A stretch of DNA of 62,448 nucleotides from Coriobacteriales bacterium (GCA_031268525.1 JAIRXA010000042.1:1-62448), one strand, 5' to 3'. Shown: positions 12,499 through 62,448, counted from the first letter of the stretch. A program made the numbers and translations. The notes: a model not told the origin generated them from the sequence alone.

Positions 12499-12525
12499 TA
12501 GTGCGTCAGTGACTGAATTGCAGAA

Positions 12526-16657: not shown

Positions 16658-16692
16658 TTTCCCAGAGGCGCGTCAACGGCGCCTCTGGGAAA
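16658..16692 (-). other. 14-bp GC-rich hairpin just after the MFS paralog 2 stop
   Basis: tttcccagaggcgc / gcgcctctgggaaa with a 7-nt loop. The trailing U-tract is weak, so terminator function is uncertain. Confidence 0.5.
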
Positions 16693-16706
16693 TCCAGTCG
16701 TACCAA

Positions 16707-18182: not shown

Positions 18183-18306
18183 TCTGTCTCCAAACCGTTT
18201 CTCGTTTCCGCAAGGTACGAAGAATGGCTGGACAGCGAGCTGCCGCCACTCTTCGTCATATTCTGTCTTTGCCAAAGACACCAAAAAACACGCTTCTGGG
18301 AATTAA

Positions 18307-21585: not shown

Positions 21586-21651
21586 TCTCCTTCGACACGT
21601 AAGCCATATCACCTCGGTCGTGCTGGAAGATCACTACAGAAGGGATGCCTT

Positions 21652-47825: not shown

Positions 47826-47949
47826 ACACACTCCGATCACGACAACCAACAGAGGGACGATTGAAGAATACTACACCTTGCTATCCTACCGCTTGATAGC
47901 CTTTGCTTCCCTAAAGAAAATTCGCTATGCCAGTTGGTGGTCTTTTCTT

Positions 47950-47992: not shown

Positions 47993-48374
47993 GGTTGCAA
48001 TGAGGCGTGCTCCTTTGACCATCCGTGAGGAAAGCCCGGCCTCGCCTATAGATAATATATCACCGACGCTTCTGGACTTCAATCACGTCACTCGCGTCAC
48101 TTTTCCATCTTTAGCAATCATGATGATCCGGTAGATGCTCTTCCTTTGCGTGAGATACCGCGATAGCTCGGAGGCAATCCTTTTATCGTCGAGCTAGGGA
48201 AGTGTGGCGAGACAAAAAAAGTACCTTTGCTTTTTGCTTTTTGCTTTTTGTCTTGCGTTCGTATGCAGAGAGCCGTAGGGTCGAGCGTAGGTTCCGCTCC
48301 TACAGATTCGTCCCTGCAGGTCCGTCCGATCCGCACCTACGATCCACTCCCGTTTTTGCCCGCGTAGGACTGTA

Positions 48375-48446
48375 TTTCGCTGTTAATGCGCGCGAAAGAC
48401 AACCGCTGAGGAGAAAATCGGTTGACTTTCGCGCGCATTAACGAAA
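48375..48446. repeat. Long imperfect inverted repeat / hairpin (about 28-bp arms, 13-nt loop)
   Basis: tttcgctgttaatgcgcgcgaaagacaaccg ... cggttgactttcgcgcgcattaacgaaa. The core 17 bp, gttaatgcgcgcgaaag, is perfect. Confidence 0.85.
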
Positions 48447-48638
48447 CTTTTGGCTCTCCGCCACCACTTAAAATAAATCTCCGCTCTCACATAGTCGCCA
48501 AAGTCCTACGCATTCTGAAGATATCATCCGGCAAAAAAATTCGTCCTATGGACCAGAGTAAACATCCAACTATGCAGATCATATCACGCAAAATCAACAG
48601 GCCTGAAGTCGATGAGCTTCTGGCCTGCAAAAATGACG

Positions 48639-48683
48639 TGGTGCGCGATACTGGATTTGAACCAGTGGCCCCTACCGTGTCAG
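48639..48683 (-). pseudogene. Orphan 3' half of a tRNA-Val gene (att-like duplicate)
   Basis: tggtgcgcgatactggatttgaaccagtggcccctaccgtgtca aligns with the 3' 45 nt of tRNA-Val at 52297-52341 (5 differences). The sequence beyond cannot form the anticodon stem, D-arm or acceptor 5' strand. Confidence 0.8.
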
Positions 48684-49017
48684 TCGCTCCATCGAGCGCA
48701 TCAGCATGTACCAGTACGAAGCAGAAAGGCCTATCTATCTGCAAGAATGGATGCTGCGACTTCGCGCAGCATGACGTGCAAGGAGTTTATGCACAGGTTG
48801 CAAGTCCCGTTGTCCCACATATATCTACACAGGATATCCAAACGTTGTAGTGTGGCTCCTGAATGGACTGCACCGGCTTGGGTATCAAGAGGCGTGCACC
48901 TCGGCACTCACGTCTCCTGTCAACTGCGCAATTTTGATGCTCGTGACAGCTTTGTTGGTGTGGTAGAATTATGAGAATTAAGAAATAGAATAAAATTAAT
49001 AGATTTGAGGTGCTTTC

Positions 49018-49278
49018 ATGGATACAGCCAAGGTAACATCAAACGGTCAGGTCACTATACCGATAGACTTCCGCAGGCTTCTGAATATCAAGCCCGGAAA
49101 CAAGGTGTTGTTCTTTCAGCGGGAAAACGGTGATGTGGTCATAGAAAACGTCTCGATTGTTGCCCTGCGCAAAGCGCAGTCGGCATTTGCTGGAGCCGCC
49201 GTTGATTTTGGCTACGAGAGCACAGATGACGTCTTGGATGACGTGATGACCACTCGTTACGGGGATAGCCATACATGA
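49018..49278 (+). CDS. AbrB/MazE/SpoVT-family antitoxin
   Basis: KVTSNGQVTIPIDFRRLLNIKPGNKVLF is a SpoVT-AbrB swapped-hairpin motif. 86 aa. The stop overlaps the PIN gene start (ATGA). Confidence 0.8.
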   Translation: MDTAKVTSNGQVTIPIDFRRLLNIKPGNKVLFFQRENGDVVIENVSIVALRKAQSAFAGAAVDFGYESTDDVLDDVMTTRYGDSHT

Positions 49279-49664
49279 GGGTAATGATAGATACCAACGT
49301 CTTCATGTCCGCACTCATGTTCCCCTCGTCGACGCCATCTGGTGCGATGCAGCTTGTGATGGAGAGACACGAGTTGGTACTTTGCGACTACATAGTCAAT
49401 GAACTCAGGAACAAGATCGGCCTAAAACGACCCGATCTTGTTCCTGCGTTGAATGAGTTGCTTGATACGATGCCTTACGAGAACGTCTCGGGGACAGGTG
49501 ATCCCACCCCTGCCATCAAAGACCCAAAGGACGCACCGATACTGGATGCTGCCATCGCGGGAAACGTCGGTGTCGTCATCAGCGGCGACAAGCATTTTAA
49601 GAGTCTGTCTCTAACAAAGCCAAGAGTGAACAGTCCGGCAGATTTCCTTAAAAAGAACAGATAA
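49275..49664 (+). CDS. PIN-domain toxin (TA system)
   Basis: MRVMIDTNVFMSAL (first acidic residue), PKDAPILDAAIAG...VISGDKHF. 129 aa, translationally coupled to the antitoxin. Confidence 0.8.
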   Translation: MRVMIDTNVFMSALMFPSSTPSGAMQLVMERHELVLCDYIVNELRNKIGLKRPDLVPALNELLDTMPYENVSGTGDPTPAIKDPKDAPILDAAIAGNVGVVISGDKHFKSLSLTKPRVNSPADFLKKNR

Positions 49665-49772
49665 CCTTGGGAGAGCCTGGGGGACGACGCAGGAGTCAGT
49701 GGTAGGAGGTGGGGCAAGGTAGTCTGTCGGTTTTGTGACGTTTTACAGGCTTTTGAGACAGCCCATTTTTCG

Positions 49773-50822
49773 CTATACACTTTTCAGGGGAACTGCTTTT
49801 GCCAGCTTTCGTTGTTTAGTAAGGATCTGGTCGAAATCATAGTCCTCAATATCAATTTCAACACAGAGCACTCCATTGATGACACGAGATTTACGTAATA
49901 GTTCTTCTGCGTCAAGCTTCATTTGTTCATAATACTTCTTCTGTTGAGAGGACAGACAACTAACAGGTACAACGACAACTCTTCTTGTCGAGATGTCATT
50001 TCCGAAGAGGTATTTATTGATGCAATCGTCAAACATTTCAAAACAAATCGATGCCGTTGCCATCATCAAAGTCACTACGGCAATAAAAATGACAGTCGCT
50101 GTCGAATTGAAGTTGTCTGAGAATACCTGAGATACAATTATCCAAAGCGCTCCGAAACCTGCAAGAACTTTAGATAGATAAGCAGTAAGCTTAATCCTTA
50201 CGGACGAATTTGCAAACTTGCATAAAATGCTAAAATATATTATGAACATAGAAATAAGTATGATAAAACTTACAAATATTATAATTATATTTATTATAAA
50301 TTTACTATCAAATGTATTTAAATATATTAAGAAACCCTCAAATACCCAAGCGATTACCACCATAATTAACAGCACGATCGACGCAATCAGTAAGGGTGAA
50401 ACCAGGATCACAGGAAAACTACCAAGCATCGATTCGATGGAACAATAATCCCTGAGACACATTTTTCTACAAGTGTGCAGAGGGCCAATTATATATGCAA
50501 CAAAGGCAAAAATTTCAAGAGTAGCATTAACGAAAATAAGAGCAGGACTTGGTGGATTGCACACAGTAATTACTATCGAGATAACAATGCAAATAGTGCC
50601 CATCAAGCTTAGAGCCATTACTATCCAAGTTTTGTTTCTTTTTTCGGACTTGCCTGCATATCCTTTCATGATTTCAAGTTGCTTTCTCCATCTTTTTGCG
50701 CAGAATCGAAAGCCGAGCTTCATATCGCTTCCATAATGCTGCCTTCCGCTCGAGAAAAAAAACGAGGAGTAATCGTCAAACTGGTTTGAAGTTTCATTCT
50801 GTTTCTTTTTGGATCTTTTCAC
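49773..50822 (-). CDS. Hypothetical polytopic membrane protein, very AT-rich gene
   Basis: 349 aa with a basic N-terminus, about 6 hydrophobic segments, and a charged ~90-aa C-terminal region. GTG start with ggaggt 5 nt upstream. No family recognised. Confidence 0.65.
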   Translation of the reverse strand: MKRSKKKQNETSNQFDDYSSFFFSSGRQHYGSDMKLGFRFCAKRWRKQLEIMKGYAGKSEKRNKTWIVMALSLMGTICIVISIVITVCNPPSPALIFVNATLEIFAFVAYIIGPLHTCRKMCLRDYCSIESMLGSFPVILVSPLLIASIVLLIMVVIAWVFEGFLIYLNTFDSKFIINIIIIFVSFIILISMFIIYFSILCKFANSSVRIKLTAYLSKVLAGFGALWIIVSQVFSDNFNSTATVIFIAVVTLMMATASICFEMFDDCINKYLFGNDISTRRVVVVPVSCLSSQQKKYYEQMKLDAEELLRKSRVINGVLCVEIDIEDYDFDQILTKQRKLAKAVPLKSV

Positions 50823-50853
50823 TTTTTACCTCCACACTACCAGTATGACTACC

Positions 50854-51309
50854 TTAATTCCGCCAATCTATCATCCATTTTTCGAGACTTCGTTCTGGCG
50901 TGCGATGGCCAAAGAGTAGAGTGTCATGTTCGGTCAAAGCTTGCACTGCAAGAAATCCCTGTAGGACAACATAAGCTGAAAGCCCATTCGATTTCTGGTC
51001 TACATCGTTGTAGATAAACTCACCCTTACGAAAGAAAGACGGTTTGCAGATTCCTTTGGAATTTGCTTTCTCTTGAGCGCAGATGGCATTTAGATAACAT
51101 ATTTGTTGCAGAGGGCACAGTGGTGAAGCTTTGCTTTCCGAAGTGTGTTGGTCGTGTAACTCATGTACTCCGCGCTCTATCATCCCCGTCACACCCTTCG
51201 GTTCTCTTGTGGGGAGCATTCTTAATGTCTGGATGTCATCCAGTGTATCAAATTCCTGCATTGTGCGTATCGACACTATTGCATTTTCCTGAAGACCGAT
51301 AATTTGCAA
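50854..51309 (-). CDS. Hypothetical protein, up to 151 aa (start uncertain: TTG 51309 or ATG 51261)
   Basis: The ORF lies 31 nt upstream of the membrane-protein gene on the same strand. No motif recognised; it could be a gene remnant. Confidence 0.4.
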   Translation of the reverse strand: MQIIGLQENAIVSIRTMQEFDTLDDIQTLRMLPTREPKGVTGMIERGVHELHDQHTSESKASPLCPLQQICYLNAICAQEKANSKGICKPSFFRKGEFIYNDVDQKSNGLSAYVVLQGFLAVQALTEHDTLLFGHRTPERSLEKWMIDWRN

Positions 51310-51413
51310 AGCTGAAACTTGTCTTAGAAATTCAGTCCACCGAGTTCAGCTCTATAGGGAAGGAGGAAGACGGCTTCCTCCTGCGGGCAACTAATGAATG
51401 GAGGATATTGCAC

Positions 51414-52124
51414 ATGAAACCGACGGAACGCGGGCAGAAAACAGTATACGTATCAGGGTCACCATCGACGGATCGCAAACTAAATAGACGTGACTTCCTG
51501 AGAATGGGAACAGCAGGCGCTGCGCTCTTGGCGACGGCAGGCGTTGTAGGCTGTGCTCCGCAATCAGAGCAGGTTGCGGATGGTGCTGTCACTTCTGGTG
51601 GCAAGATTCCAGAGACTTGGGATCGGGAAACTGAAATCCTCGTCGTCGGTGGCGGTGGTGGCGGCATGATTGCGGCCTGCAACAACTGGTACACCACAGC
51701 AACAGCACGAAGGCAAGAAGTTTCGATGCTTGAGTATGAAACCCTTGAAGAACTTGCCAAAGCCATGGAGGTACCCGCAGGCACTCTGAAAGCAGCCATA
51801 GATCGCTACAACAGTTTTGTGAGTGCAGGTTCCGACGAGGACTTCGGTCGGTTGCTCAGACAGGTAGAGCAACTTAATACGCCGCCGTTTCGCGCCATCC
51901 GCATGGCACCACGACATTATACGACCTATGGAGGCATAGCTATCGGTGCAGAATGCCATGTGCTCTCCCGTGACGACTCGCCCATCCCAGGACTGTATGC
52001 GGCGGGAACCTGTTGCGGCTCCAGCGTGGAACAGGAGGGTATCTACTATGAAGGTGGTGTTGGACAGACCCTGACCCAAGGCTGTATCTGCGCCGAAGTA
52101 GCAACCGCAGAACAGATGGGGTAG
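51414..52124 (+). pseudogene. Internally deleted paralog of the Tat-exported FAD-dependent reductase
   Basis: It keeps the Tat/lipobox signal (RRDFLRMGTAGAALLATAGVVGC) and the GxGxxG start (ILVVGGGGGGMIAA). It then joins directly to the C-terminal ~130 aa (LEELAKAMEVPAGTLKAAIDRYN...PGLYAAGT). About 300 aa of the middle are missing relative to 53689-55308. Confidence 0.75.
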
Positions 52125-52296: not shown

Positions 52297-52372
52297 TGGT
52301 GCGCGATGTTGGATTTGAACCAACGACCCCTACCGTGTCAAGGTAGTGCTCATCCCCCTGAGCTAATCGCGC
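52297..52372 (-). tRNA. tRNA-Val (anticodon GAC)
   Basis: Reverse complement is GCGCGATTAGCTCAGGGGGATGAGCACTACCTTGACACGGTAGGGGTCGTTGGTTCAAATCCAACATCGCGCACCA. Clean cloverleaf with anticodon loop TTGACAC. Confidence 0.9.
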
Positions 52373-52562: not shown

Positions 52563-53564
52563 GTGGCCATGGCAACCAGACTTGAAGACTTACAGGATGT
52601 CGATGTGCTCGTCATGACGATTATCCGCGACGACTTGGACTTGCTCACCGATTTTCTTATTATCGAGTACGATCGTCAGTATCCTGATACGGCGGTCTCG
52701 CTTCTTACCAAACCAGAGCGACGACAGCTCATCCAAAAGGGCACCGACCGCGTCCTCCTCGCCTTTACCCTAAGCCCCGGGGAGTTGGCGCGTGAGGACA
52801 TGATTTACCCTCTCACCACGAGCCAGTCGCATACCTTACTCGATGACAGAATATTTCTAAGCAGTATCGATAATGACTTTTTCGTATTTGAAGTGTTTTT
52901 AAGTCATGTGCTGGAACGGATCGAGTCCGACGACACGCTGCAAAGACAGGTTATCCTCTCACTTTTTCGAGCATTTTCAGTGATGATGCGCGCTAATGTC
53001 ATCCGCCAACTTGATGGACTCGCGCTGAATATCGAGGAAATGAGTGCCGCAAAACGCTCCCAGGAGCAGCTTGCCTTTGCACGGCAGCTTCAAAAGCAAC
53101 TTACGCAGACAAGCACCGTGCTTACCAAAGAAATCGACGACTTTGGTAAGAAGCACGCAGAGCTGAACGGTGAGCTTGACTTTTTCACTGCGAAGATGAA
53201 GATGCTCACCAAAGACCTGTTCGAAGAAGCCTGTTTGGACATCAGCGAGCCAGAAAGACCAGTAGAACTGGTGGAGGCTTTATTGAACCCTGCCAAAATC
53301 CCCCAGAAAAGCGCACTGCCAAACAGAGATGCAGAGGAAGCAAGGCTTGTTGATGCTGGACTTACTGTACGCGAACAGCAGATCGCAGCCTTGGTTACCG
53401 AGGGCCTTTCCAATAAGGAGATCGCCTCACGCCTCCATATTACCGAGAGCACAGTCAAAAACCACCTACGTAAGATATTTGAACGCCTTGCTATTACCAA
53501 ACGTACACAACTGGCCGTGTTTGGTGCTTATCGCAAAGCCCTGGGGATCAAGCTGCCTTACTGA
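52563..53564 (+). CDS. LuxR-family transcriptional regulator (soluble N-terminal domain of unknown type)
   Basis: C-terminal HTH: LTVREQQIAALVTEGLSNKEIASRLHITESTVKNHLRKIFERL. GTG 52563 or ATG 52569 start. Confidence 0.85.
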   Translation: MAMATRLEDLQDVDVLVMTIIRDDLDLLTDFLIIEYDRQYPDTAVSLLTKPERRQLIQKGTDRVLLAFTLSPGELAREDMIYPLTTSQSHTLLDDRIFLSSIDNDFFVFEVFLSHVLERIESDDTLQRQVILSLFRAFSVMMRANVIRQLDGLALNIEEMSAAKRSQEQLAFARQLQKQLTQTSTVLTKEIDDFGKKHAELNGELDFFTAKMKMLTKDLFEEACLDISEPERPVELVEALLNPAKIPQKSALPNRDAEEARLVDAGLTVREQQIAALVTEGLSNKEIASRLHITESTVKNHLRKIFERLAITKRTQLAVFGAYRKALGIKLPY

Positions 53565-53688
53565 GTAGTACGAAAGTACTAAAACATCGGCAACTACAGC
53601 GTAAGAAACTGTACAACGGTGTCTGTTGACTCCCCGCTGTGACCGATAGCATTCTTCCTGTCTTATTCGTTGCAAAATAGGAGGAAGT

Positions 53689-55308
53689 ATGCAGGACAAA
53701 CAGCAGGGGGATTGGGTGAGCAGGCGGTCTTTCCTGGCAGGAGTTACCGGCATGGCGGCACTCGGTGTCGTTGGTGGGCTTACAGCCTGCGCACCGGCCA
53801 CAACAAATGCTGGCGGCTCGAACAACGAAACGGCTTCGGTGACGAGCGGAGGCGCGCTACCAGCAAACTGGGATCTGACGTGTGACATCTTGGTGATTGG
53901 CGGTGGCGGCAGTGGCCTTACCGCAGCAGCCAAGGCCGCAGAACTCGGGAACAAGGTCATCCTCGCCGAGAAGATGGAGCGCGTAGGCGGTGACACAGCA
54001 TTGTCGTCGCAGGTCGTGCAAGGGATATGGACACCCTCGTATGAAGAAGGCGACACGAAGGAAATCTATTTGGAGGATCTCAAACAAAGCCACTGGGCAA
54101 CCGAGAAGGGCGAGATGGGGGTGGCGCTGCCAAGCGAATTCCCTCTCACCAACGCCTGGCTCGACAACTGTCCAGAAATGTATGACTGGGCAGAAGCTGG
54201 GGGCATGAGCTGGAGTGCGGTAACTTCACCGTATGCCTGTTACTATCCGCAACCACAATGGGACACCAAGCACACCCGTCATTATGCGCCCGCCGGAGGT
54301 TCACTCATTACGGTACTGCAAAACATTGCCGAAGGGGCCGGGGTTGATATTCAGATTCGAACGCCCGTCATCGAACTTATAGCCAAGGACTCCGGGAGAG
54401 TCGTGGGAGCGTGGGCCCTGGATGCCAACGAACGGATTATCGCCATCAAGGCAACAAAAGCCCTTGTCCTTGCTACCGGTGGCTTTAACGCAGACAGGGG
54501 CATGATGAGTCGTTATCTGCCGCTTCAAGGTATGGGATTTTGCGGAGGAGGCGACGGCAACACCGGAGATGGGCACCTCTTTGTCAAGGCGCTGGGTGGT
54601 GCGCTCAATGATATGTCGCTTGGTTCGCATTGGATGGTATACGACGATGTATCGCCCTCGGTGCTCTATAACGGGGCTTCGATGATCTTTTACGGCGGCG
54701 CAGAAGGTCAGGCAGATGCCACTGATCTCCCCTTCCTGCTTATCAACATGAATGGCGAGCGATTCATGGCCGAGACGATGGGCTACAAATGGGTAGGCTA
54801 TCACACCAACAATCAGCCCTACCACCTCAATCATATCGTCTTTGATTCTGGGACAGTGTGCCAAAAATGGTTCGAGACGGCAACGACCCGCTACCCCGAT
54901 GTCAAATACTACAGTGCCGAAACTCTTGACGAATTGGCTCAGCAGATGCAGGTTCCGGCTGAGACACTCGCGACTACCATACAGCGCTATAACCAACTGG
55001 TTGATACGGGCGTTGATGAGGACTTCGGTCGCTCAATGCGCGGCGTGGGCAAATTGGAAACACCACCTTTCCGTGCGGTGCGGATGCGGCCACGCCATTA
55101 CACTACGTACGGAGGCGTTGGTATCGACACCTCCTGTCGTGTTCTCAAAGAGGACGGGTCGATCATTCCGGGACTCTATGCTGCGGGAACCGTCTGTGGC
55201 ACACTCGTCGAGCAGGAAGGTCTCTATTATCAGGGCGGCAACGGTCAGGCACTGACCTTTGGCTACCTGGCTGGTAAGACGGCAGCAACCGAAGAGTCGT
55301 GGGAGTAG
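53689..55308 (+). CDS. Tat-exported lipoprotein, FAD-dependent oxidoreductase of the fumarate-reductase/flavocytochrome flavoprotein family
   Basis: Twin-arginine signal SRRSFLAGVTGMAALGVVGGLTAC (lipobox Cys), ILVIGGGGSGLTAA dinucleotide motif, and C-terminal PGLYAAGT. RBS aggagga. Confidence 0.85.
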   Translation: MQDKQQGDWVSRRSFLAGVTGMAALGVVGGLTACAPATTNAGGSNNETASVTSGGALPANWDLTCDILVIGGGGSGLTAAAKAAELGNKVILAEKMERVGGDTALSSQVVQGIWTPSYEEGDTKEIYLEDLKQSHWATEKGEMGVALPSEFPLTNAWLDNCPEMYDWAEAGGMSWSAVTSPYACYYPQPQWDTKHTRHYAPAGGSLITVLQNIAEGAGVDIQIRTPVIELIAKDSGRVVGAWALDANERIIAIKATKALVLATGGFNADRGMMSRYLPLQGMGFCGGGDGNTGDGHLFVKALGGALNDMSLGSHWMVYDDVSPSVLYNGASMIFYGGAEGQADATDLPFLLINMNGERFMAETMGYKWVGYHTNNQPYHLNHIVFDSGTVCQKWFETATTRYPDVKYYSAETLDELAQQMQVPAETLATTIQRYNQLVDTGVDEDFGRSMRGVGKLETPPFRAVRMRPRHYTTYGGVGIDTSCRVLKEDGSIIPGLYAAGTVCGTLVEQEGLYYQGGNGQALTFGYLAGKTAATEESWE

Positions 55309-57174: not shown

Positions 57175-57248
57175 TGGAGGCGACGACCGGATTCGAACCG
57201 GTGATGAAGGCTTTGCAGGCCTCTGCCTTACCACTTGGCCACGTCGCC
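57175..57248 (-). tRNA. tRNA-Cys (anticodon GCA)
   Basis: Reverse complement is GGCGACGTGGCCAAGTGGTAAGGCAGAGGCCTGCAAAGCCTTCATCACCGGTTCGAATCCGGTCGTCGCCTCCA. Anticodon loop CTGCAAA. Confidence 0.88.
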
Positions 57249-57257
57249 TTACAACAA

Positions 57258-57285
57258 CAGACCACGCGATGATGCGCGTGGTCTG
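57258..57285 (-). other. 11-bp hairpin in the tRNA-Gly/tRNA-Cys spacer
   Basis: cagaccacgcg / atgatg / cgcgtggtctg. On the minus strand it is followed by ttgttgt. Confidence 0.5.
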
Positions 57286-57294
57286 TCGATATCG

Positions 57295-57370
57295 TGGAGC
57301 GGACAACGGGACTCGAACCCGCGACCCCAACCTTGGCAAGGTTGTGCTCTACCAACTGAGCCATGTCCGC
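57295..57370 (-). tRNA. tRNA-Gly (anticodon GCC)
   Basis: Reverse complement is GCGGACATGGCTCAGTTGGTAGAGCACAACCTTGCCAAGGTTGGGGTCGCGGGTTCGAGTCCCGTTGTCCGCTCCA. Anticodon loop TTGCCAA. Confidence 0.9.
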
Positions 57371-57500
57371 ATTGCGCAAGGAAGTATTCTACTGAAATCC
57401 GCACGTATGAGCAAGTGCCAATCAGATGAAGGACCCACCAGAGACCCCCATGCGTCAGACAAACTACCGGGAAAACGCCCCTCTCCCCTACTATTCCCCG

Positions 57501-58304
57501 CTACTCGATGCGGATCTCCAAAGACAGGAAGTAGTCGTCGCCTGAGATGGAGGTAATGTCTACGAGCGAACCCCAAAATATCATCTTTCCCGTAATACGC
57601 AGGTCTTCACGCTGGATATAGTCTACGAGTTTCTCGATGGCCCGCGCTCGACCATTGTCGCGGTTTTGATAGACCACACAGACATACCTGCCCCGAGGTA
57701 GGACGAACTCCGCGTAGGGTGCGCCGGCGTCCTCGCCCGTCCCTACATGGATTCGCCCCGGACTGGTGAACTCCAGCGTCGAGGGATCGATGTCGCGAAG
57801 GAGGTAATAGGTAAAATCATAGTGGTTGCCTGCATCGACGATGCTGGCACGTGCTTTGATCAGCGCCTGTTCGATGTCTGCCGCACTATCCGGCTTGACA
57901 TAGATACGTCGCTCGCCCCGCTCTTCCACTGCAGGTTGATAGGTCACCAAATCCTCGCGTAAGGTAATCGCGTGCAGCTTCTTGGTGAGGAACTCCTTGC
58001 GCTTGTTCAACTCGTCGATTTCTGAATCGATCTCAGCGGACTGCTGCTTCAGAAAGGTGGTGAGCATCTCGGGGTCGTTGCCATGCGCGACATATTCCTT
58101 AATGGTTTTCAGGGGCAGACCCGTTGCCTTACCAAGACAACGAATCAAATCCAGCCGGAACATATCTTGAAGGGAATAATAGCGATAGTTGGTCTCGGGA
58201 TCCGTATAATGCGGCGTCACGAGCCCGATAGTCTCGTAGTACCTGATCGTTCGGATAGGCAGGCTCAACAGCTTGGAGACCTGCCCGATCATATAGAGCG
58301 CCAT
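57501..58304 (-). CDS. MerR-family regulator with GyrI-like effector-binding C-terminal domain
   Basis: MALYMIGQVSKLLSLPIRTIRYYETIGLVTP...YRYY is a MerR HTH. It is followed by a coiled-coil and a C-terminal domain of about 150 aa. Start trimmed from 58367. Confidence 0.8.
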   Translation of the reverse strand: MALYMIGQVSKLLSLPIRTIRYYETIGLVTPHYTDPETNYRYYSLQDMFRLDLIRCLGKATGLPLKTIKEYVAHGNDPEMLTTFLKQQSAEIDSEIDELNKRKEFLTKKLHAITLREDLVTYQPAVEERGERRIYVKPDSAADIEQALIKARASIVDAGNHYDFTYYLLRDIDPSTLEFTSPGRIHVGTGEDAGAPYAEFVLPRGRYVCVVYQNRDNGRARAIEKLVDYIQREDLRITGKMIFWGSLVDITSISGDDYFLSLEIRIE

Positions 58305-58462
58305 CGGGGAGATCCTTCTCTCAAACTCTCCAATAGAGACAGGGTTTATCTCCGAGTATTCAAGCATGTTTCAGCTGGAAACACAAGCAGGAAAGGGCAG
58401 CCCCAAGCCAGCCCTTTCCCGAACTTTTCCGATTCGCTTTTTGCCGCGCGCAAGGACTCTGC

Positions 58463-58762
58463 TCAGATGCGTTTGGCCTCAAACTTGCACTTGCCTACCG
58501 CCATCTTGGCGATGCCACTCATCGAGTCGCCCTCGACCTTGCCGGTCAGCGTAAAGGTAAAGCTCCCCATGGCTGGTACCGGAAAATCCACCTTGAACCT
58601 GAAGTCGTCTCCGCTGACGCTTCCCTCATAGATCTCGGTATTCCAACCGCTCTCCGCGCTGAACTTGCCTGTCAGCGCCTCGCCGTCCTCGACCGCCTCA
58701 AAAACCACAATCTTGGCGCCCATGGGCGAATGCAGTACCATATCCCATTTTCCTGCAAGCAT
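58463..58762 (-). CDS. Hypothetical small beta-rich protein, 99 aa
   Basis: Begins 19 nt after the stop of the 904-aa gene, with RBS gaggag. No motif recognised. Alternating hydrophobic pattern (FRFKVDFPV, FTFTLTGKVEG). Confidence 0.55.
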   Translation of the reverse strand: MLAGKWDMVLHSPMGAKIVVFEAVEDGEALTGKFSAESGWNTEIYEGSVSGDDFRFKVDFPVPAMGSFTFTLTGKVEGDSMSGIAKMAVGKCKFEAKRI

Positions 58763-58781
58763 TTTGGATCCTTTCTCCTCG

Positions 58782-61496
58782 TCAGATCAACAATGTCAAA
58801 TCGCCTGCCGGATAGGTCACGCAGGGATGGATATACCCATAGCGCATGTCCGACTTGCGTAAACTCGCGAGTCCCGGGTGGAATACCTCGCCATCCATGA
58901 GCCTTGAGCGACAGACGCCACACTCACCGCTACGGCAGTGATTCTTCTTGGTGATCCCGGCCTTTTCGAGCGCGAACAGGATCGATTCGCCTGCGACCGC
59001 TGGTAGACTGCGGCCATCCGTAAGTGTGATGGTGAACACATCGTCCGGATTGATGCCCTGCGGCCAACCCGCCAGCTTCCAGGGCTCTTTGGGCGCCGAC
59101 GGTACTTCCTTGCGAATCTTTCGCCGCGCTACCTCGAGCTTCTCGAGTTCGGGGACCACGAAATCATACATCGCCTGTGGCCCGCAGAGGAAGAGGGTGT
59201 AATCCTGTGGATCGCCGAGCTCCTCTTTGATGAGCTCGGCCGTGATGAACCCGGTACGGACGTGTGAAGCCATGTCCACTTCCGGTTCCGAAATGACGGG
59301 CACCAGACGGAAGTTCTCGCGTACTGCGGCGAGCTTCTCAAGCCTGTCCACAAAGATCACGTCGTCCTCTTTTGCGCAGCCGTAGAGCAACACGATCTCC
59401 TCGTCATCGGAAAACTTCTCAGAGTCTGTTTCAAGCATACTCATGAACGGTGTGATGCCGCTGCCTCCTGCTATGAAGCACAGTTTCCTGCCATGCACCG
59501 GCCTGAAGCGATAGAAGGTGCCCAGCGGCCCCGTGGACGTCAAGACGTCTCCAACCTTGAGATCGTTCAGGAGGAAATCGGATACGAACCCGTCCTTACT
59601 CTCGCGCACCGTTATCTCATAGAAACCACGCTCTGTCTCCGGAGACGAGATGCTGTAGGCGCGACTGGTATGGATGCCCTTGACACAGACACTCAGATTC
59701 AGGTACTGGCCGGCTACGAAAGGCGGAATGTAGCCATCTACCGGCGCGAGCTTGATCGACTTGGCGCTTGCCGTCTCGGTGCGGATGGCAACAACCTTGA
59801 GCTTGATGCTGTCGGGGTGAAGGGTATTGACCTCGTTACGAACCTTGCCCTTACGAACGCGATGGTCGAAATTGTAGGTCCGCCCTACTTCCAGCTCAGC
59901 CATGATCTTGTCGTAGTGCTTCATCTTGCTGAAGTCATGCCTGACCGGGTGCACGCCCTCCCGCATATCCTTGAGAACGACACGGGCCGCCGTGTAGCCG
60001 CCCATGAAGGTCGTGTGGAATCCACCAAACATGAATGACGCGCCACAGAAATACAGTCCACCTATCGGCGACCGGGCATCCAGTTTGGAGGCGATGAGGT
60101 CCTTCATGTGGCTGTCTACGCCATAGATACCGCCATTGATCGACCCAATGTAACGCTGGAGCGTCATCGGCGTAAAGATCTCGATCTCCTCGATGTGGTC
60201 TTTGACCTCAGGATAGAAATCGTAGAAGTAATCGAGCATCTTCTCAGCGTACTTGAATTTGACGTCGTGGTACTGCTCCGGCGGGTACTCGACAAAGGGA
60301 TCGGTGACCTTACTTGTCAGAACCGTCAGCACACAGGTGCCCTCTTCACTGTAATCGGGGTCATCGATATTGTAGACGGACACATACTCCAGGGGCACGT
60401 AATCGAGTTGCCTGAGGTTGTACTCGTAGCGCTGTGGCTTCATGGTTCCCGGAGCGGGCATCAAAAAGCTCGTTGCGTTCTCCAGCCCGACCTCCTCGGC
60501 CGTGCAGTCCAGCCCAATGTTCATGCCGAAGATACCCTGACTGGGATTGGATACGCGCAGGTCGGCGTAGAGATCCTCCGGCACCAGATCATTGTCGATC
60601 AGGTCGATGTAGGCATTGATCCTGCCCACGTTACAGAGTACGACCGGTGCATGGAAGGTCTCGCCGGATTCCGTCTCCACGCCCTTGACGATGTTATCCT
60701 CGACTATGATCTTCTTTACGCGGGTGTTCAGCTTCAGAGTGCCACCCAGATCGATGAAGGTATTGGTCACCGCGGCGGTCATCGACGCCGAGGTGCCCTT
60801 GACGTTCCAGGAGCCGCCTGTGCGCTCATACAGTGCCGCGAGTATGGGGAAGGGGATCCGCTCGATGGGGATGCCGAGATAGCCGTACAGGCATTGGTAG
60901 ACACCCTTGAGCATCGCGTTTTCGAAATATTTGTTGAGCATCTCCAAGCCTGTGACCTGACCATACTCAAACAGGCAGGGAAACTCCTCCTGAGTGATGG
61001 GCCTGTCTTCGGCAACAAAGTCGTAGAGCCGCATGAACTCCAGACCGGTACGCTCAACCAGATCCTGATACTGAGCGATTGCCTCTTTCTCGGTGTTGAA
61101 GAAGTCCTGAAGTTCACCGACAAAGCCCTCGCGAGTATTGGGCAGGGCGATCTCGCCCATGCCCTTGAAGGCGAGCCTGAAGGCCTCTTCCTGCGGCACG
61201 AACTCGATCTTGTCCCAGACCCCCAGAGTCTCGAACAGGCGTCTGAGATAGCCCTTTTCACCCGTGTAGATATCGCCGACGCCATAGAGCTGGTGTAAGC
61301 CTGTCTCAAACTCGAAGCGCCCACGCACGAAGGAGGAGCCACATCCACCTGTGATGTCGTGCTGCTCCAACAGGAGCGTCTTCTTTCCCGCCTTCTGTAG
61401 CGTCAGTGCTCCCGCGTTGCCACCGTTGCCAGCTCCGATAACGATGACGTCATACTCTGTTTCCATCAAAGCAATCACCTCCGATTTCTCTTCCAA
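58782..61496 (-). CDS. Fusion protein: CrtI/phytoene-desaturase-like FAD oxidoreductase + FNR-type flavin reductase + plant-type [2Fe-2S] ferredoxin
   Basis: The N-terminus has YDVIVIGAGNGGNAGA...LLEQHDITGGCG, and the CrtI-like region runs about 530 aa. The middle has RAYSISS (RxYS) and FIAGGSGITP. The C-terminus has CRSGECGVCRSRL...29 aa...C (Cx4Cx2Cx29C). Confidence 0.8.
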   Translation of the reverse strand: MEEKSEVIALMETEYDVIVIGAGNGGNAGALTLQKAGKKTLLLEQHDITGGCGSSFVRGRFEFETGLHQLYGVGDIYTGEKGYLRRLFETLGVWDKIEFVPQEEAFRLAFKGMGEIALPNTREGFVGELQDFFNTEKEAIAQYQDLVERTGLEFMRLYDFVAEDRPITQEEFPCLFEYGQVTGLEMLNKYFENAMLKGVYQCLYGYLGIPIERIPFPILAALYERTGGSWNVKGTSASMTAAVTNTFIDLGGTLKLNTRVKKIIVEDNIVKGVETESGETFHAPVVLCNVGRINAYIDLIDNDLVPEDLYADLRVSNPSQGIFGMNIGLDCTAEEVGLENATSFLMPAPGTMKPQRYEYNLRQLDYVPLEYVSVYNIDDPDYSEEGTCVLTVLTSKVTDPFVEYPPEQYHDVKFKYAEKMLDYFYDFYPEVKDHIEEIEIFTPMTLQRYIGSINGGIYGVDSHMKDLIASKLDARSPIGGLYFCGASFMFGGFHTTFMGGYTAARVVLKDMREGVHPVRHDFSKMKHYDKIMAELEVGRTYNFDHRVRKGKVRNEVNTLHPDSIKLKVVAIRTETASAKSIKLAPVDGYIPPFVAGQYLNLSVCVKGIHTSRAYSISSPETERGFYEITVRESKDGFVSDFLLNDLKVGDVLTSTGPLGTFYRFRPVHGRKLCFIAGGSGITPFMSMLETDSEKFSDDEEIVLLYGCAKEDDVIFVDRLEKLAAVRENFRLVPVISEPEVDMASHVRTGFITAELIKEELGDPQDYTLFLCGPQAMYDFVVPELEKLEVARRKIRKEVPSAPKEPWKLAGWPQGINPDDVFTITLTDGRSLPAVAGESILFALEKAGITKKNHCRSGECGVCRSRLMDGEVFHPGLASLRKSDMRYGYIHPCVTYPAGDLTLLI

Positions 61497-61752
61497 GGGT
61501 CATGATAGTGACCTTGGACCTCTGCCTCGAGCTGCCTGGCAAGCTCATTAAACGTATCTTTGCCCTACTGAATATGTTCAGATTACCCGGATGAAATCTG
61601 CCCCGCTGGACAGCAACATACAGCCTCTACCAACTGGAGAGTCAAGCTGGTGGATTCTCTTGTCTCGTTCTGGTTCTGCCTGGCGCAGGGAAGCAAACAG
61701 GGGAAACGACCCTGTGGCAGCGCCTTATCTCTGGGACCGCACGGGAGACTGG

Positions 61753-62448
61753 CTACCCACGAATCCGCTGGGGCTTCAGGAAGATAGACGTCTCGAGTAG
61801 ATAATCATCAGAACTCATCGCATGAAGCTCGTTGATCGGATATATCTGATAGATAGGCCCCTTCAGATCGAGAGCCTGATTTTCGGCAAAGGTCTTCAGG
61901 CGCGCTGGGAGTTCACCCACCGAGCCATACCCACCGCGCTGATAGGTAAGCAGGTATTGGCCGGCAGGGCTCTTATCCCTGCCGTCCGGGTCGATGAGGA
62001 AAAACCGAGTCGGGCGAGAGGGGCTTGCGCAGAAGTCTTCAAAGCTGTTGAAATAACCACCGATCGGGTAGGACTTGTTCAGCTTGAACTTCGTGGCAAA
62101 ACGATAGAATTTCGCAAACCCACGGTAATAGTCCTCTTCACCCTGGAAATCGTTTATGGGGCCCAGAGTTATTCGCCTGCTCTCGCGGTACTCGAAAACA
62201 ATATCCTGTTCGTTTCGCGGTATCGCGTCCTGAAGAAGAAAGCGCAGGGTGCCGATGAGCGTCAGAGCATCGCATACCTTTCGCAATTCGCTGTTAAGCT
62301 GACGCTCCTGACTTGAAAACAGCTGGGTGATGCTCTCGATGTTTCGCTTCTGCACCAGGGCTTTGATTTCCTTGAGGGGTATCTTCATATTACGCAAGGT
62401 ATCGATAAGCTTGACCATCTGTATCTGTTCGAGTTGATAATAGCGATA
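61753..62448 (-). CDS. MerR-family regulator with GyrI-like C-terminal domain (N-terminus beyond the right edge)
   Basis: The frame stays open to the window end: YRYYQLEQIQMVKLIDTLRNMKIPLKEIKALV is the end of a MerR HTH plus dimerisation helix. The C-terminal effector-binding-like domain follows. Confidence 0.75.
   Translation of the reverse strand, partial: YRYYQLEQIQMVKLIDTLRNMKIPLKEIKALVQKRNIESITQLFSSQERQLNSELRKVCDALTLIGTLRFLLQDAIPRNEQDIVFEYRESRRITLGPINDFQGEEDYYRGFAKFYRFATKFKLNKSYPIGGYFNSFEDFCASPSRPTRFFLIDPDGRDKSPAGQYLLTYQRGGYGSVGELPARLKTFAENQALDLKGPIYQIYPINELHAMSSDDYLLETSIFLKPQRIRG

What the first reader, a model, noticed from the sequence alone, without database searches (positions are those of the whole stretch)
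57501..62448. A 904-aa self-sufficient CrtI-like flavoenzyme fused to an FNR + [2Fe-2S] reductase module, with a 99-aa partner and two MerR/GyrI-like regulators
Seen in sequence: one uninterrupted ORF joins a phytoene-desaturase/RetSat-like FAD oxidoreductase (GAGNGG dinucleotide motif, about 530 aa) to a ferredoxin-NADP-reductase-type module (RAYSISS, GGSGITP) and a plant-type ferredoxin (Cx4Cx2Cx29C). This FNR + 2Fe-2S arrangement is known from phthalate-dioxygenase-reductase-type electron donors, where it feeds oxygenases. Fused to a CrtI-like domain in an apparent anaerobe, it suggests an NAD(P)H-driven C=C reduction or desaturation of a hydrophobic substrate with a built-in electron-transfer chain. 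A 99-aa beta-rich ORF follows 19 nt downstream. MerR regulators with GyrI-like ligand-binding domains lie on both sides, consistent with small-molecule induction. I know of no characterised enzyme with this domain order.
Basis: partly seen in the sequence, partly recalled or inferred. Interest (0 to 1): 0.75.

Follow-up and report, generated by a model that had tools for sequence, protein, structure and literature searches.

The report
Self-powered CrtI-like flavoenzyme, uncharacterised family
A gut-type anaerobe encodes one long protein that joins a carotenoid-desaturase-like flavoenzyme to its own NAD(P)H-driven electron supply; this design is common in anaerobes, has not been studied, and probably hydrogenates a greasy unsaturated compound.

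Summary
One ORF (58782-61466/61496, minus strand, 894/904 aa) joins a COG1233 (CrtI/CRTISO-like) FAD domain to an FNR-type flavin/NAD(P)H module and a C-terminal plant-type [2Fe-2S] domain. All cofactor motifs are conserved. It is not an assembly artefact. At least 150 species encode fused relatives, and all five unfused homologs examined have a separate FNR+Fer2 gene immediately downstream. Fused and split states switch at least five times on the tree. Within its own clade the gene belongs to a conserved module: a BmrR-like MerR regulator, a MerR-class promoter (TTGACTCTCC, 19-nt spacer), the fusion, and a 99-aa eight-stranded barrel. That barrel belongs to a broad domain family with no Pfam model. 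In close relatives the operon also holds a geranylgeranyl-reductase-family enzyme or a fumarate-reductase-type flavoenzyme. In distant relatives the system sits in beta-oxidation-like operons. No paper or PDB entry found describes this architecture. The nearest known analogue is limonene dehydrogenase CtmAB with its separate ferredoxin and reductase. My best reading, which is inferred and not shown, is a MerR-induced, NAD(P)H-driven saturase acting on a C=C bond of a hydrophobic substrate. A reduced-flavin-dependent isomerase is the main rival. I rate it a new variant of a known kind, of moderate to high interest.

The parts
61753..62448 (-). Upstream MerR-family regulator, truncated at its 5' end by the contig end (231 codons in frame)
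   Evidence: MerR_1 profile positions 35-67 match residues 1-33 (E 0.0019). Weak match to BmrR residues 42-135. 35% identical to MerR288 over the wing and coiled coil. Orthologous loci L087 and L088 have a full-length BmrR-like MerR in the same position.
61615..61645 (-). MerR-class promoter/operator: -35 TTGACT (61645-61640), 19-nt spacer (61639-61621), -10 TATGTT (61620-61615)
   Evidence: Read. The pattern has one match in the window against 0.00 expected in 100 shuffles. The 10-mer TTGACTCTCC plus a 19-nt spacer and TAxxxT occurs once each upstream of the operons in L002, L003, L084, L087 and L088, and nowhere else in 88 loci.
58782..61466 (-). Fusion CDS, 894 aa from ATG 61466 (alternative TTG at 61496 gives 904 aa); SD GGAGGTG at 61476-61482
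   Evidence: AF2 model has pLDDT 88.6 and pTM 0.90.
59973..61409 (-). N-terminal COG1233 (CrtI/CRTISO-like) FAD domain; GAGNGG dinucleotide fold; family signature RGRFEFExxLH
   Evidence: Pfam Amino_oxidase 30-508. TIGR02730 109 bits and TIGR02734 88 bits, both below cutoff. CrtI 4dgk E 2e-14. 4rep TMt 0.82. R58, G59, R60, E62, L67 and H68 are invariant in 120 homologs.
59820..59915 (-). Structured helical connector between the enzyme and reductase modules (conserved YNxDHR motif nearby)
   Evidence: Helices 518-549 in 894-aa numbering, pLDDT about 88. Conserved in orthologs.
59157..59720 (-). FNR-type flavin-binding (RAYS) and NAD(P)H-binding (GGSGITP, CGP) module
   Evidence: Pfam FAD_binding_6 593-662 and NAD_binding_1 674-780. 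PDB BenC, GcoB and PDR hits. Invariant motif residues.
58809..59015 (-). C-terminal plant-type [2Fe-2S] ferredoxin domain (C854, C859, C862, C892 in 904-aa numbering)
   Evidence: Pfam Fer2 828-896. All four Cys invariant in 46 fused homologs.
58463..58762 (-). p99: 99-aa eight-stranded antiparallel beta-barrel partner, 19 nt downstream of the fusion
   Evidence: pLDDT 90.4. Foldseek to FABP/CRABP and de novo ligand-binding barrels, TMq 0.55-0.77. Adjacent to the fusion in L001-L003, L087 and L088. Wider family of 771 representatives.
57501..58367 (-). BmrR-like MerR regulator (HTH plus GyrI-like effector domain), 288 aa
   Evidence: Pfam MerR_1. BmrR full-length alignment, E 1e-18. Conserved downstream of p99 in L001-L003. 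37-43% identical to the upstream MerRs of L087 and L088.
57469..57488 (-). Possible terminator-like hairpin closing the module (consensus match only)

Best explanation
This is a self-sufficient, ligand-induced flavoenzyme module. Shown by sequence: the 894-aa protein has a COG1233 FAD domain, a structured connector, an FNR-type flavin/NAD(P)H domain and a plant-type [2Fe-2S] domain. Inferred: electrons flow NAD(P)H -> FNR flavin (two-electron to one-electron converter) -> [2Fe-2S] -> COG1233 FAD, which is thereby kept reduced and transfers the reducing equivalents to a C=C bond of a hydrophobic substrate. The net reaction would be saturation of an isoprenoid, polyene or unsaturated acyl-type compound, in the way RetSat works. 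The 99-aa calycin-like barrel probably binds or hands over the poorly soluble ligand. A BmrR-like MerR bound to the 19-nt-spacer promoter switches the operon on when the compound, or a related hydrophobic molecule, is present. The arrangement therefore looks like an inducible detoxification or electron-sink function, not core metabolism.
For: Architecture and cofactor motifs. A confident single assembly with pTM 0.90 and a structured connector. The C-module matches phthalate dioxygenase reductase over its whole length and the reductase part of self-sufficient P450s. A functional link between the two halves is supported three ways. All 5 unfused homologs examined have an FNR+Fer2 gene directly downstream, and three junctions read GGAGG..TAATG. 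Those split partners are 45-58% identical to the fused C-module. There are at least 5 fused/split switches on the tree. The reductive direction is supported by several lines. The closest NCBIfam model is the carotenoid isomerase CRTISO, which needs reduced FAD, and CrtI itself switches from dehydrogenase to isomerase when its FAD is reduced under anoxia (PMC3382138). The oxidative relative, limonene dehydrogenase, needs a positive-potential acceptor and is considered inoperable in highly reduced habitats (PMC12583861). NAD(P)H at about -320 mV is a donor, not a feasible acceptor, for C-C desaturation (established thermodynamics). The saturase theme comes from operon partners in the same MerR-controlled operon: a geranylgeranyl-reductase-family protein at the curated cutoff (161.3 vs 158.8 bits) plus a GltD-like NAD(P)H Fe-S flavoprotein in L001/L002, and a fumarate-reductase/KstD-type flavoenzyme with its own p99-like barrel and NADH/Fe-S donors in L087. 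Hydrophobic or acyl substrates are suggested by the beta-oxidation-type neighbours of more distant relatives (acyl-CoA synthetase, ECH, ACAD, HCDH, thiolase, MaoC hydratases). They are also suggested by the calycin-like fold of p99 and its fusion to lipocalin domains and small-molecule enzymes elsewhere. Regulation: BmrR-like MerR and the conserved promoter.
Against: No biochemical data exist for any member, and the substrate is unknown. The best structural matches of the N-domain are desaturases, which are oxidative enzymes. The one characterised COG1233 system that depends on a ferredoxin and reductase (CtmAB-EF) is oxidative. Some operons of distant split homologs contain hydratase, dehydrogenase and thiolase but no acyl-CoA dehydrogenase, so a dehydrogenase role could be argued there. 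The GGR-type and FRD-type neighbours occur in only a few loci and are absent from the window. Split homologs occur in what are probably aerobes. The Foldseek matches for p99 are weak (best E about 1e-3). The distance between the cluster and the COG1233 flavin could not be measured with these tools.
Confidence: 0.5

Rival explanations
1. It is a redox-neutral isomerase that depends on reduced flavin, as CRTISO does (cis-trans or positional isomerisation of a polyene or unsaturated acyl chain). The fused reductase only primes the flavin and keeps it reduced, and electrons are not consumed stoichiometrically.
For: The best NCBIfam match of the N-domain is carotenoid isomerase (109 bits). CRTISO and anoxic CrtI need reduced FAD for isomerisation (PMC3382138). 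Beta-oxidation contexts also require double-bond isomerisation steps. The presence of split systems in probable aerobes would fit a need for continuous re-reduction.
Against: A dedicated reductase that is fused or translationally coupled, maintained across hundreds of lineages, is what stoichiometric electron consumers have, such as oxygenases and self-sufficient P450s. In anaerobes a priming reduction could come from general reductants. The operon partners in close relatives belong to net C=C reductase or dehydrogenase families. The score is far below the CRTISO cutoff (109 vs 587).
Confidence: 0.2
2. It is an oxidative enzyme like limonene dehydrogenase CtmAB or the steroid delta-24 desaturase (allylic hydroxylation or desaturation). 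The [2Fe-2S]/FNR module would carry electrons away to NAD(P)+, or serve only for reductive activation.
For: CtmAB is a COG1233 enzyme that genetically requires a 2Fe-2S ferredoxin and clusters with an NADH:ferredoxin oxidoreductase (PMC4109377). An invariant His (H68) lies in a motif that partly resembles the covalent-flavin motif of CtmAB and delta-24-SD. Some distant operons lack an acyl-CoA dehydrogenase. The structural neighbours are desaturases.
Against: Transfer from C-H oxidation to NAD(P)+ is strongly endergonic. Limonene dehydrogenase needs a positive-potential acceptor and is judged unlikely in reduced habitats. There is a single catalytic domain, not an alpha-beta pair of paralogs. 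The motif matches only about 3-4 of the defined positions, and the same ETGLH motif occurs in plant PDS, reported in the literature to bind FAD non-covalently (PMC11061730; alignment to 5mog). From their sizes and best matches, CtmE and CtmF appear to be a different type of ferredoxin and reductase.
Confidence: 0.1
3. It is a reductase for a non-alkene xenobiotic, for example a quinone, azo or nitro compound, or a reductive dehydroxylation in the manner of HpnE. In this reading it is a general MerR/BmrR-controlled stress-response enzyme.
For: BmrR-type regulators typically respond to diverse hydrophobic toxic compounds (family knowledge). The window has no pathway context. Members of the amine-oxidase superfamily have diverse chemistries, and structural hits to NicA2 and putrescine oxidase reach TMt about 0.7.
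Against: The best matches are consistently carotenoid-type enzymes. Relatives are embedded in acyl-CoA operons or sit next to GGR-type and FRD-type enzymes.
Confidence: 0.14
4. The long ORF is an assembly or sequencing artefact that joins two adjacent genes.
For: Split two-gene versions with overlapping stop and start codons exist, so a single-base error could in principle fuse two genes.
Against: Forty-six fused proteins of 885-951 aa turn up from independent assemblies and sources, along with at least 150 species representatives. The connector sequence is conserved and is predicted to be structured within a pTM 0.90 model.
Confidence: 0.01

Closest known systems
Limonene dehydrogenase system CtmAB + CtmE (2Fe-2S ferredoxin) + CtmF (NADH:ferredoxin oxidoreductase) of Castellaniella defragrans, and the related steroid delta-24 desaturase of Sterolibacterium denitrificans
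   Same: A COG1233 'phytoene dehydrogenase family' flavoenzyme acts on a hydrophobic terpenoid or steroid without O2 and is genetically tied to a 2Fe-2S protein and a pyridine-nucleotide-linked reductase (PMC4109377; PMC11061730).
   Different: Those catalytic cores are alpha-beta heterodimers of two paralogs with covalently bound flavin and no Fe-S cluster. They are oxidative and need a high-potential acceptor. Their electron carriers are separate genes, apparently of another type (107-aa ferredoxin, 409-aa reductase). Here there is one catalytic domain fused, or translationally coupled, to an FNR + plant-type Fer2 module, found mostly in strict anaerobes. Direct sequence comparison was not possible.
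CrtI / CRTISO / RetSat branch of the amine-oxidase superfamily
   Same: The same fold and FAD dinucleotide motif. CRTISO is the best curated model. CrtI (4dgk) and a carotenoid desaturase (4rep) are the best solved structures. CRTISO chemistry requires reduced FAD. RetSat is a saturase (own knowledge).
   Different: Scores lie far below the family cutoffs (109 vs 587; 88 vs 238). The neighbours that were annotated include no carotenoid-type genes. None of these enzymes carries a built-in reductase.
Phthalate dioxygenase reductase-type (FNR-like + C-terminal plant-type [2Fe-2S]) reductases and their natural fusions (CYP116B-type self-sufficient P450s; self-sufficient reductive dehalogenases)
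   Same: The C-terminal 350 aa have the same domain order, motifs and fold (2pia TMt 0.77; 6kbh and 6laa). The logic is the same: an NAD(P)H-driven donor fused to the catalytic domain (PMC10463259 abstract).
   Different: The acceptor domain here is a flavoenzyme of the COG1233 family, not an oxygenase, P450 or corrinoid enzyme. The catalytic domain is N-terminal. The flavin type (FMN or FAD) is not determined.
BmrR (Bacillus subtilis multidrug-responsive MerR activator)
   Same: The HTH, coiled coil and GyrI-like effector domain align over the full length. The target promoter has a 19-nt spacer. The regulator gene lies downstream of its target, as I recall for bmr-bmrR (own knowledge).
   Different: It controls an enzyme operon, not an efflux pump. 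The ligand is unknown. The window carries two such regulators flanking the operon.
Putative isoprene reductase IsrA of Acetobacterium wieringae
   Same: A candidate NADH/FAD/Fe-S enzyme that hydrogenates an unactivated terpenoid C=C in an anaerobe (PMC10134865).
   Different: IsrA is a GltD-like (PF07992 + DPD domain II) Fe-S flavoprotein with Ni chaperones, not a COG1233 enzyme. It resembles the GltD-like neighbours in L002 and L087, not the fusion.

Membership tests
CrtI phytoene desaturase family (TIGR02734) | Score at or above the curated family cutoff (238.1 bits) | tested here: not met
   88.5 bits for the N-domain.
CrtI phytoene desaturase family (TIGR02734) | N-terminal FAD dinucleotide-binding fold and overall two-domain amine-oxidase-type fold | tested here: met
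   GAGNGG, with E34 invariant. 4dgk E 2e-14 over the full length. 4rep TMt 0.82.
CrtI phytoene desaturase family (TIGR02734) | Carotenoid biosynthesis gene context (crtB, crtE, crtY) | tested here: not met
   The neighbours annotated within about 19 kb are regulators, tRNAs, membrane proteins and housekeeping genes. No such family appears among the 25 largest neighbour clusters of 80 loci. The first 39 kb of the window were not annotated.
Carotenoid isomerase CRTISO (TIGR02730) | Score at or above the equivalog cutoff (586.9 bits) | tested here: not met
   109.5 bits. It is the best curated model but far below the cutoff.
Phthalate-dioxygenase-reductase-type reductase (FNR-like + C-terminal plant-type 2Fe-2S) | RxYS flavin motif, GGxGxxP and CGP pyridine-nucleotide motifs | tested here: met
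   RAYS at 612 and GGSGITP at 677. Motif residues are invariant or at least 90% conserved in 46 homologs.
Phthalate-dioxygenase-reductase-type reductase (FNR-like + C-terminal plant-type 2Fe-2S) | Four Cys ligands Cx4Cx2Cx29C in a C-terminal Fer2 domain | tested here: met
   C854, C859, C862 and C892, invariant. Pfam Fer2 E 1e-9.
Phthalate-dioxygenase-reductase-type reductase (FNR-like + C-terminal plant-type 2Fe-2S) | Three-domain fold and domain order as in 2pia | tested here: met
   2pia TMt 0.77 over 347 columns; 7ylr TMt 0.64.
Phthalate-dioxygenase-reductase-type reductase (FNR-like + C-terminal plant-type 2Fe-2S) | Delivers electrons to an oxygenase partner | tested here: not met
   The partner is a fused or adjacent COG1233 flavoenzyme. 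No oxygenase gene is in the operon.
CtmAB / delta-24-SD class of COG1233 enzymes | Heterodimer of two paralogous COG1233 subunits encoded side by side | tested here: not met
   There is a single COG1233 domain per system in the window and in all fused and split loci inspected.
CtmAB / delta-24-SD class of COG1233 enzymes | Covalent flavin on the His of G-F-[LR]-x-[NS]-[TL]-H-A near the N terminus (PMC11061730) | tested here: inconclusive
   The family has E-F-E-x-[SAG]-L-H-[QE] with an invariant H68. Only F, L, H and sometimes S agree. The same ETGLH occurs in plant PDS 5mog, described in the literature as binding FAD non-covalently. CtmA and CtmB sequences could not be fetched.
CtmAB / delta-24-SD class of COG1233 enzymes | Dependence on a 2Fe-2S ferredoxin and a pyridine-nucleotide-linked reductase | tested here: met
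   Met at the level of genetic linkage only: fused here, and adjacent in 5 of 5 split systems.
MerR family, BmrR subtype (MerR288) | N-terminal MerR HTH, coiled coil and C-terminal GyrI-like effector domain | tested here: met
   MerR_1 E 6e-17. BmrR residues 8-256 aligned to 23-263, E 1e-18.
MerR family, BmrR subtype (MerR288) | Target promoter with an over-long (19-20 nt) spacer containing the operator | tested here: met
   The window promoter has TTGACT-19 nt-TATGTT at 61615-61645. The same TTGACTCTCC + 19-nt spacer + TAxxxT pattern is conserved in five related loci. Binding was not tested.
MerR family, BmrR subtype (upstream partial ORF) | GyrI-like C-terminal domain | tested here: inconclusive
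   Only the HTH remnant and coiled coil are recognisable. There is no significant match for the C-terminal 140 aa.
Calycin/lipocalin-like ligand-binding barrels (p99) | Eight-stranded antiparallel up-and-down beta-barrel | tested here: met
   AF2 pLDDT 90.4 with eight strands. TMq 0.55-0.77 to FABP, CRABP and designed ligand-binding barrels.
Calycin/lipocalin-like ligand-binding barrels (p99) | Membership of a curated sequence family (Pfam Calycin_like, Lipocalin) | tested here: not met
   p99 has no Pfam hit even at E 10. A seven-copy relative gives only a sub-threshold Calycin_like hit (27.4 vs 30 bits).
Calycin/lipocalin-like ligand-binding barrels (p99) | Binds a hydrophobic ligand | not testable with these tools
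   Inference from the fold and from domain partners.

The most novel reading that the evidence does not exclude
The fusion, with its split relatives, is the founding example of a new, widespread class of NAD(P)H-driven ene-reductases. These would use a CrtI-like flavin fed by one-electron steps from a [2Fe-2S] cluster to hydrogenate non-activated or conjugated C=C bonds of lipids, isoprenoids or acyl-CoAs. Such enzymes could account for orphan hydrogenation activities in gut, rumen, termite-gut and sediment anaerobes (phytol, carotenoid, terpene or polyunsaturated fatty acid saturation). The small barrel would be a dedicated lipid-handover partner.
Probability: 0.3. Interest if true: 0.8.

Novelty: new variant of a known kind. 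Interest (0 to 1): 0.6.

Why it matters
If the inferred chemistry is right, this is an unexplored family of self-sufficient biocatalysts. One polypeptide needing only NAD(P)H would reduce C=C bonds in hydrophobic molecules that classical Old Yellow Enzyme-type ene-reductases cannot touch. The family is large (at least 150 species representatives, with fused and split forms). It occurs in gut and rumen Clostridia, syntrophs, sulfate reducers, Chloroflexota and even an Asgard MAG, so it could explain orphan hydrogenation or isomerisation steps in lipid and terpenoid turnover under anoxia. It also gives a clean natural example of repeated gene fusion and fission between an enzyme and its electron donor. 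It provides a conserved MerR promoter/regulator pair that could serve as a biosensor for the unknown inducer. Finally, it reveals a roughly 95-aa barrel domain family with no Pfam model that is attached to many small-molecule enzymes.

Tried and rejected
1. Assembly artefact: rejected, because the fusion recurs and the connector is conserved and structured.
2. Genuine CrtI or CRTISO carotenoid enzyme: rejected, because scores are far below the cutoffs and there is no crt context.
3. Membership of the CtmAB/delta-24-SD class: not established. The enzymology paper PMC6005450 is not held, and CtmA and CtmB sequences could not be retrieved. The published covalent-flavin motif matches only partly, and the ETGLH motif is shared with plant PDS.
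4. The NaphS2 genome paper contains nothing on these genes.
5. Isoprene reductase IsrA as a relative: rejected, because it belongs to a different family.
6. Ten full-text searches found no paper on the fused architecture. They covered CrtI-like with ferredoxin reductase, COG1233, biohydrogenation, prolycopene isomerase, saturase and RetSat.
7. The sigma-70 scan tool found no promoter because it allows only 16-18 nt spacers. The MerR-type promoter was found by reading the sequence.
8. The first inverted-repeat call failed on a strand argument.
9. Alignment A2, which included the second fused clade, was badly gapped (1492 columns). It was replaced by A3 for structure prediction.
10. A p99 profile search found no p99-like genes in the 86 loci held at that point beyond the closest clade.
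11. The wider window (39.5-57 kb) gives no pathway clue.


Full report
OBSERVATION. The window is a complete 62,448-bp contig of a Coriobacteriales MAG. The protein database holds the identical protein on a single contig of exactly that length. On the minus strand there is an uninterrupted ORF at 58782..61496, 904 aa from a TTG. A GGAGGTG box lies 9 nt upstream of ATG 61466, and the NCBI product is 894 aa, so the true start is probably that ATG. Pfam finds Amino_oxidase (30-508), FAD_binding_6 (593-662), NAD_binding_1 (674-780) and Fer2 (828-896). NCBIfam independently hits carotenoid isomerase and CrtI-family models for the N-terminal half, and BenC, Hcr and PaaE-type reductases for the C-terminal half. 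The four Cys, the GGxGxxP glycines and proline, CGP, and Y/S of RxYS are invariant or at least 90% conserved in 46 fused homologs. The 99-aa ORF (58463..58762) starts 19 nt after the stop codon. The downstream 288-aa regulator has a MerR HTH and aligns to BmrR along its whole length (E 1e-18), so it is a MerR with a GyrI-like effector domain. The upstream regulator is cut by the contig end. Only the end of the HTH and the coiled coil can be recognised, so its GyrI-like domain is not demonstrated.

IS THE FUSION REAL? Yes. The protein search returned 46 fused proteins of 885-951 aa from independent NCBI, JGI, ENA and Logan assemblies. A scan of one genome per GTDB species found 150 stretches encoding relatives, and 77 of the 80 kept loci contain both halves in one frame. 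The hosts include Clostridia (Family XIII, Christensenellales, Oscillospiraceae, Lachnospiraceae), Bacilli, Desulfobacterota and Syntrophales, Chloroflexota, Leptospirales, SAR324 and one Promethearchaeota MAG. All 80 loci are MAGs. The connector between the modules is conserved in orthologs. AlphaFold2 predicts the whole protein as one confident assembly (pLDDT 88.6, pTM 0.90) with a helical connector instead of a disordered linker.

ROSETTA-STONE EVIDENCE. Seventy-three of the 120 best hits are unfused proteins of about 500 aa, 36-53% identical to the N-domain. I inspected five of them: Clostridium sp. YIM B02555, Maricurvus nonylphenolicus, a Logan contig, a TARA ocean scaffold and a JGI contig. 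In all five, the next gene encodes a 384-392-aa FAD_binding_6 + NAD_binding_1 + Fer2 protein. Three of the junctions read GGAGG..TAATG, meaning an overlapping stop and start with the Shine-Dalgarno box inside the upstream gene. In the three split systems compared by tblastn (L084-L086), the reductases are 45-58% identical to the fused C-module of the window. That is closer than many fused relatives, at about 35% for the N-domain and 44% for the C-module. A neighbour-joining tree of the N-domains needs at least five fused/split switches. The two halves are therefore one co-evolving functional unit that has been fused or split repeatedly.

THE LOCAL MODULE. The partner p99 has only 19 close homolog clusters, all labelled 'hypothetical'. 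In every close relative that could be inspected it lies directly downstream of the fusion: L001-L003 at 69-73% identity, L088 at 62% and L087 at 56%. More distant systems lack it. A BmrR-like MerR always accompanies the pair, downstream in L001-L003 and upstream on the same strand in L087 and L088. The window has both. Upstream of the fusion I read a promoter with the MerR hallmark: TTGACT, a 19-nt spacer, then TATGTT (61645-61615). The pattern TTGACTCTCC-N15-TANNNT matches once in the window against 0.00 expected in shuffles. The 10-mer occurs exactly once in each of L002, L003, L084 (the split system of Clostridium sp.), L087 and L088. In each case it sits in front of the operon with the same 19-nt spacing, and it occurs nowhere else in 88 loci. 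In L002 it precedes a longer operon: a GltD-like Fe-S flavoprotein, then a 377-aa protein that reaches the curated cutoff of the geranylgeranyl-reductase family (161.3 vs 158.8 bits), then the fusion, p99 and MerR. In L087 the operon continues with a Fer2/Fer4/GltD-like flavoprotein, a NuoF-like Fe-S protein, a 489-aa FAD_binding_2 enzyme of the fumarate-reductase/KstD type, and a second p99-like barrel (E 7e-17). The rest of the window gives no pathway context. It holds tRNA-Gly and tRNA-Cys, small membrane proteins, a Tat-signal flavoprotein with a LuxR regulator, and housekeeping genes.

p99. AlphaFold2 gives an eight-stranded antiparallel barrel (pLDDT 90.4). Foldseek finds only weak matches (best E about 1e-3), but they are consistently small ligand-binding barrels: designed fluorogen-binding barrels and fatty-acid, retinoid and bile-acid binding proteins, at TMq 0.55-0.77. 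No Pfam model matches it. An exhaustive profile search shows it belongs to a much wider family, with 771 representatives at E of 1e-3 or better. Members are stand-alone proteins of about 98 aa or tandem arrays of 2-12 copies. The same domain is appended to an aromatic-ring hydroxylase, a luciferase-like monooxygenase, an SDR, amidohydrolases and a molybdopterin enzyme, and it is fused to a bacterial lipocalin domain. An accessory ligand-binding role is a reasonable inference, not a result.

WIDER CONTEXT. Clustering the neighbours of the 80 loci gives these results:
- a GntR/FadR-type regulator in 16 loci; the example shown is from a human-gut Clostridiales MAG;
- an acyl-CoA synthetase immediately upstream in 12 loci;
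- an enoyl-CoA hydratase immediately downstream in 11;
- NMO/FabK-like proteins in 6;
- acyl-CoA dehydrogenases in 5.
The split systems sit in beta-oxidation-type operons: two ACADs and an ECH in Maricurvus; thioesterase-ECH-X-reductase-HCDH-ECH-thiolase-ECH in L086; and CoA-transferase, thiolase, MaoC hydratases and an SDR in L090. One fused relative is followed by an OYE/FadH-like enzyme. The family at large therefore acts in the metabolism of acyl-type, hydrophobic carboxylates.

MECHANISM. The cofactor sites and their order are shown. The C-module matches phthalate dioxygenase reductase over its whole length (2pia TMt 0.77), as well as the reductase part of self-sufficient CYP116B P450s. 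The electron path is inferred: NAD(P)H -> FNR flavin -> [2Fe-2S] -> COG1233 FAD. The direction is also inferred, from four arguments. First, the nearest curated model is CRTISO, which requires reduced FAD, and CrtI itself is a dehydrogenase with oxidised FAD and an isomerase with reduced FAD under anoxia (PMC3382138). Second, the oxidative COG1233 enzyme limonene dehydrogenase needs a positive-potential acceptor and is considered inoperable in highly reduced habitats (PMC12583861). Third, NAD(P)+ cannot accept electrons from C-C desaturation for thermodynamic reasons (established knowledge). Fourth, the co-operonic partners in close relatives belong to C=C reductase families. I therefore favour a MerR-induced, NAD(P)H-driven saturase of a hydrophobic unsaturated substrate (confidence about 0.5). 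The rivals are a reduced-flavin isomerase (0.2), a non-alkene xenobiotic reductase (0.14) and an oxidative CtmAB-like enzyme (0.1). An artefact is excluded.

COMPARISON WITH THE KNOWN. The closest functional precedent is the ctm cluster of Castellaniella defragrans. CtmAB are COG1233 enzymes. Transposon hits in the 2Fe-2S ferredoxin gene ctmE abolish growth on limonene, and ctmF encodes an NADH:ferredoxin oxidoreductase (PMC4109377). The steroid delta-24 desaturase is related to CtmAB (PMC11061730). Those enzymes are alpha-beta heterodimers with covalent flavin on a His in the motif G-F-[LR]-x-[NS]-[TL]-H-A, and they are oxidative. The present family has one catalytic domain. It does have an invariant His in E-F-E-x-[SAG]-L-H-[QE], but the same ETGLH occurs in plant PDS, which the literature describes as binding FAD non-covalently. 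Membership is therefore not established, and the heterodimer criterion is not met. The protein is not a CrtI or a CRTISO by the curated cutoffs. The putative isoprene reductase IsrA belongs to a different family, GltD-like. No PDB entry covers the whole architecture (best TMq 0.47), and ten full-text searches found no description of it. Automatic annotation has noticed the domain combination (the JGI name is 'ferredoxin-NADP reductase/phytoene dehydrogenase-like protein'), so only the biology is new, not the sequence.

VERDICT. This is a real, widespread and apparently uncharacterised two-module enzyme system, seen here as a natural fusion inside a conserved MerR-promoter-enzyme-barrel module. 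I rate it a new variant of a known kind: a COG1233 flavoenzyme combined with a PDR-type donor. Interest is 0.6. The chemistry is unproven, but it is directly testable, including in the named isolates that carry the split form.

Noticed in passing
window 58463-58762 (-) and proteins P0140-P0289: p99 belongs to a roughly 95-aa eight-stranded barrel domain family with no Pfam model: 771 representatives at E of 1e-3 or better. Members are stand-alone, in tandem arrays of up to 12 copies, or appended to aromatic-ring hydroxylases, luciferase-like monooxygenases, SDRs, amidohydrolases, molybdopterin enzymes and lipocalin domains. It is a candidate new domain family.
   Followed up: partly
L087 5420-10708: A second 'flavoenzyme + small barrel' pair lies in the same MerR operon: a Fer2/Fer4/GltD-like 697-aa protein, a NuoF-like 451-aa protein, a FAD_binding_2 489-aa enzyme, and a p99-like 104-aa ORF (E 7e-17). 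This suggests the barrel is a general partner of flavin-dependent reductases.
   Followed up: partly
L002 4932-7913 (also L001 1-1321): A GltD-like Fe-S flavoprotein (589 aa) and a geranylgeranyl-reductase-family protein (377 aa) lie upstream of the fusion, behind the same TTGACTCTCC promoter. The GltD-like protein has the same Pfam domain set as that reported for the putative isoprene reductase IsrA.
   Followed up: partly
L055 (Promethearchaeota MAG, WJIS01000250.1) 8001-10809: A fused homolog (29% identity in the N-domain, 38% in the C-module) sits on a contig binned to an Asgard archaeon. This could be lateral transfer or a binning error; it was not examined.
   Followed up: no
window 52563-55308 (+): A LuxR/GerE-family regulator (52563-53564) is followed by a 539-aa FAD_binding_2 flavoprotein whose N terminus looks like a Tat signal (RRSFLAG, read by eye). 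It matches flavocytochrome c, fumarate reductase and KstD-type models. To my knowledge this pairing is typical of Coriobacteriia reductase arsenals. It is probably unrelated to the finding.
   Followed up: partly
window 57175-57370 (-): tRNA-Cys(GCA) and tRNA-Gly(GCC) lie immediately downstream of the MerR288 terminator-like hairpin, and tRNA-Val(GAC) lies at 52297-52372. The enzyme module thus sits between a tRNA pair and the contig end, a common landing site for acquired DNA.
   Followed up: no
window 10001-22000 and 48001-52000: Two stretches have clearly lower G+C (0.43-0.49, against about 0.57 elsewhere). Two ORFs in the second stretch (49773-50822 and 50854-51309) have no Pfam hit. These may be horizontally acquired islands.
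   Followed up: no
window 46653-47849 (-): An HI0933-like flavoprotein of 398 aa, the same Pfam family as BaiN to my knowledge.
   Followed up: no
L083 10737-12794: In a relative with a 56%-identical N-domain, the fusion is followed directly by a 685-aa OYE/FadH-like (Oxidored_FMN + Pyr_redox_2) enzyme and preceded by a divergent sigma-54 activator. This is another pairing with a known ene-reductase family.
   Followed up: no
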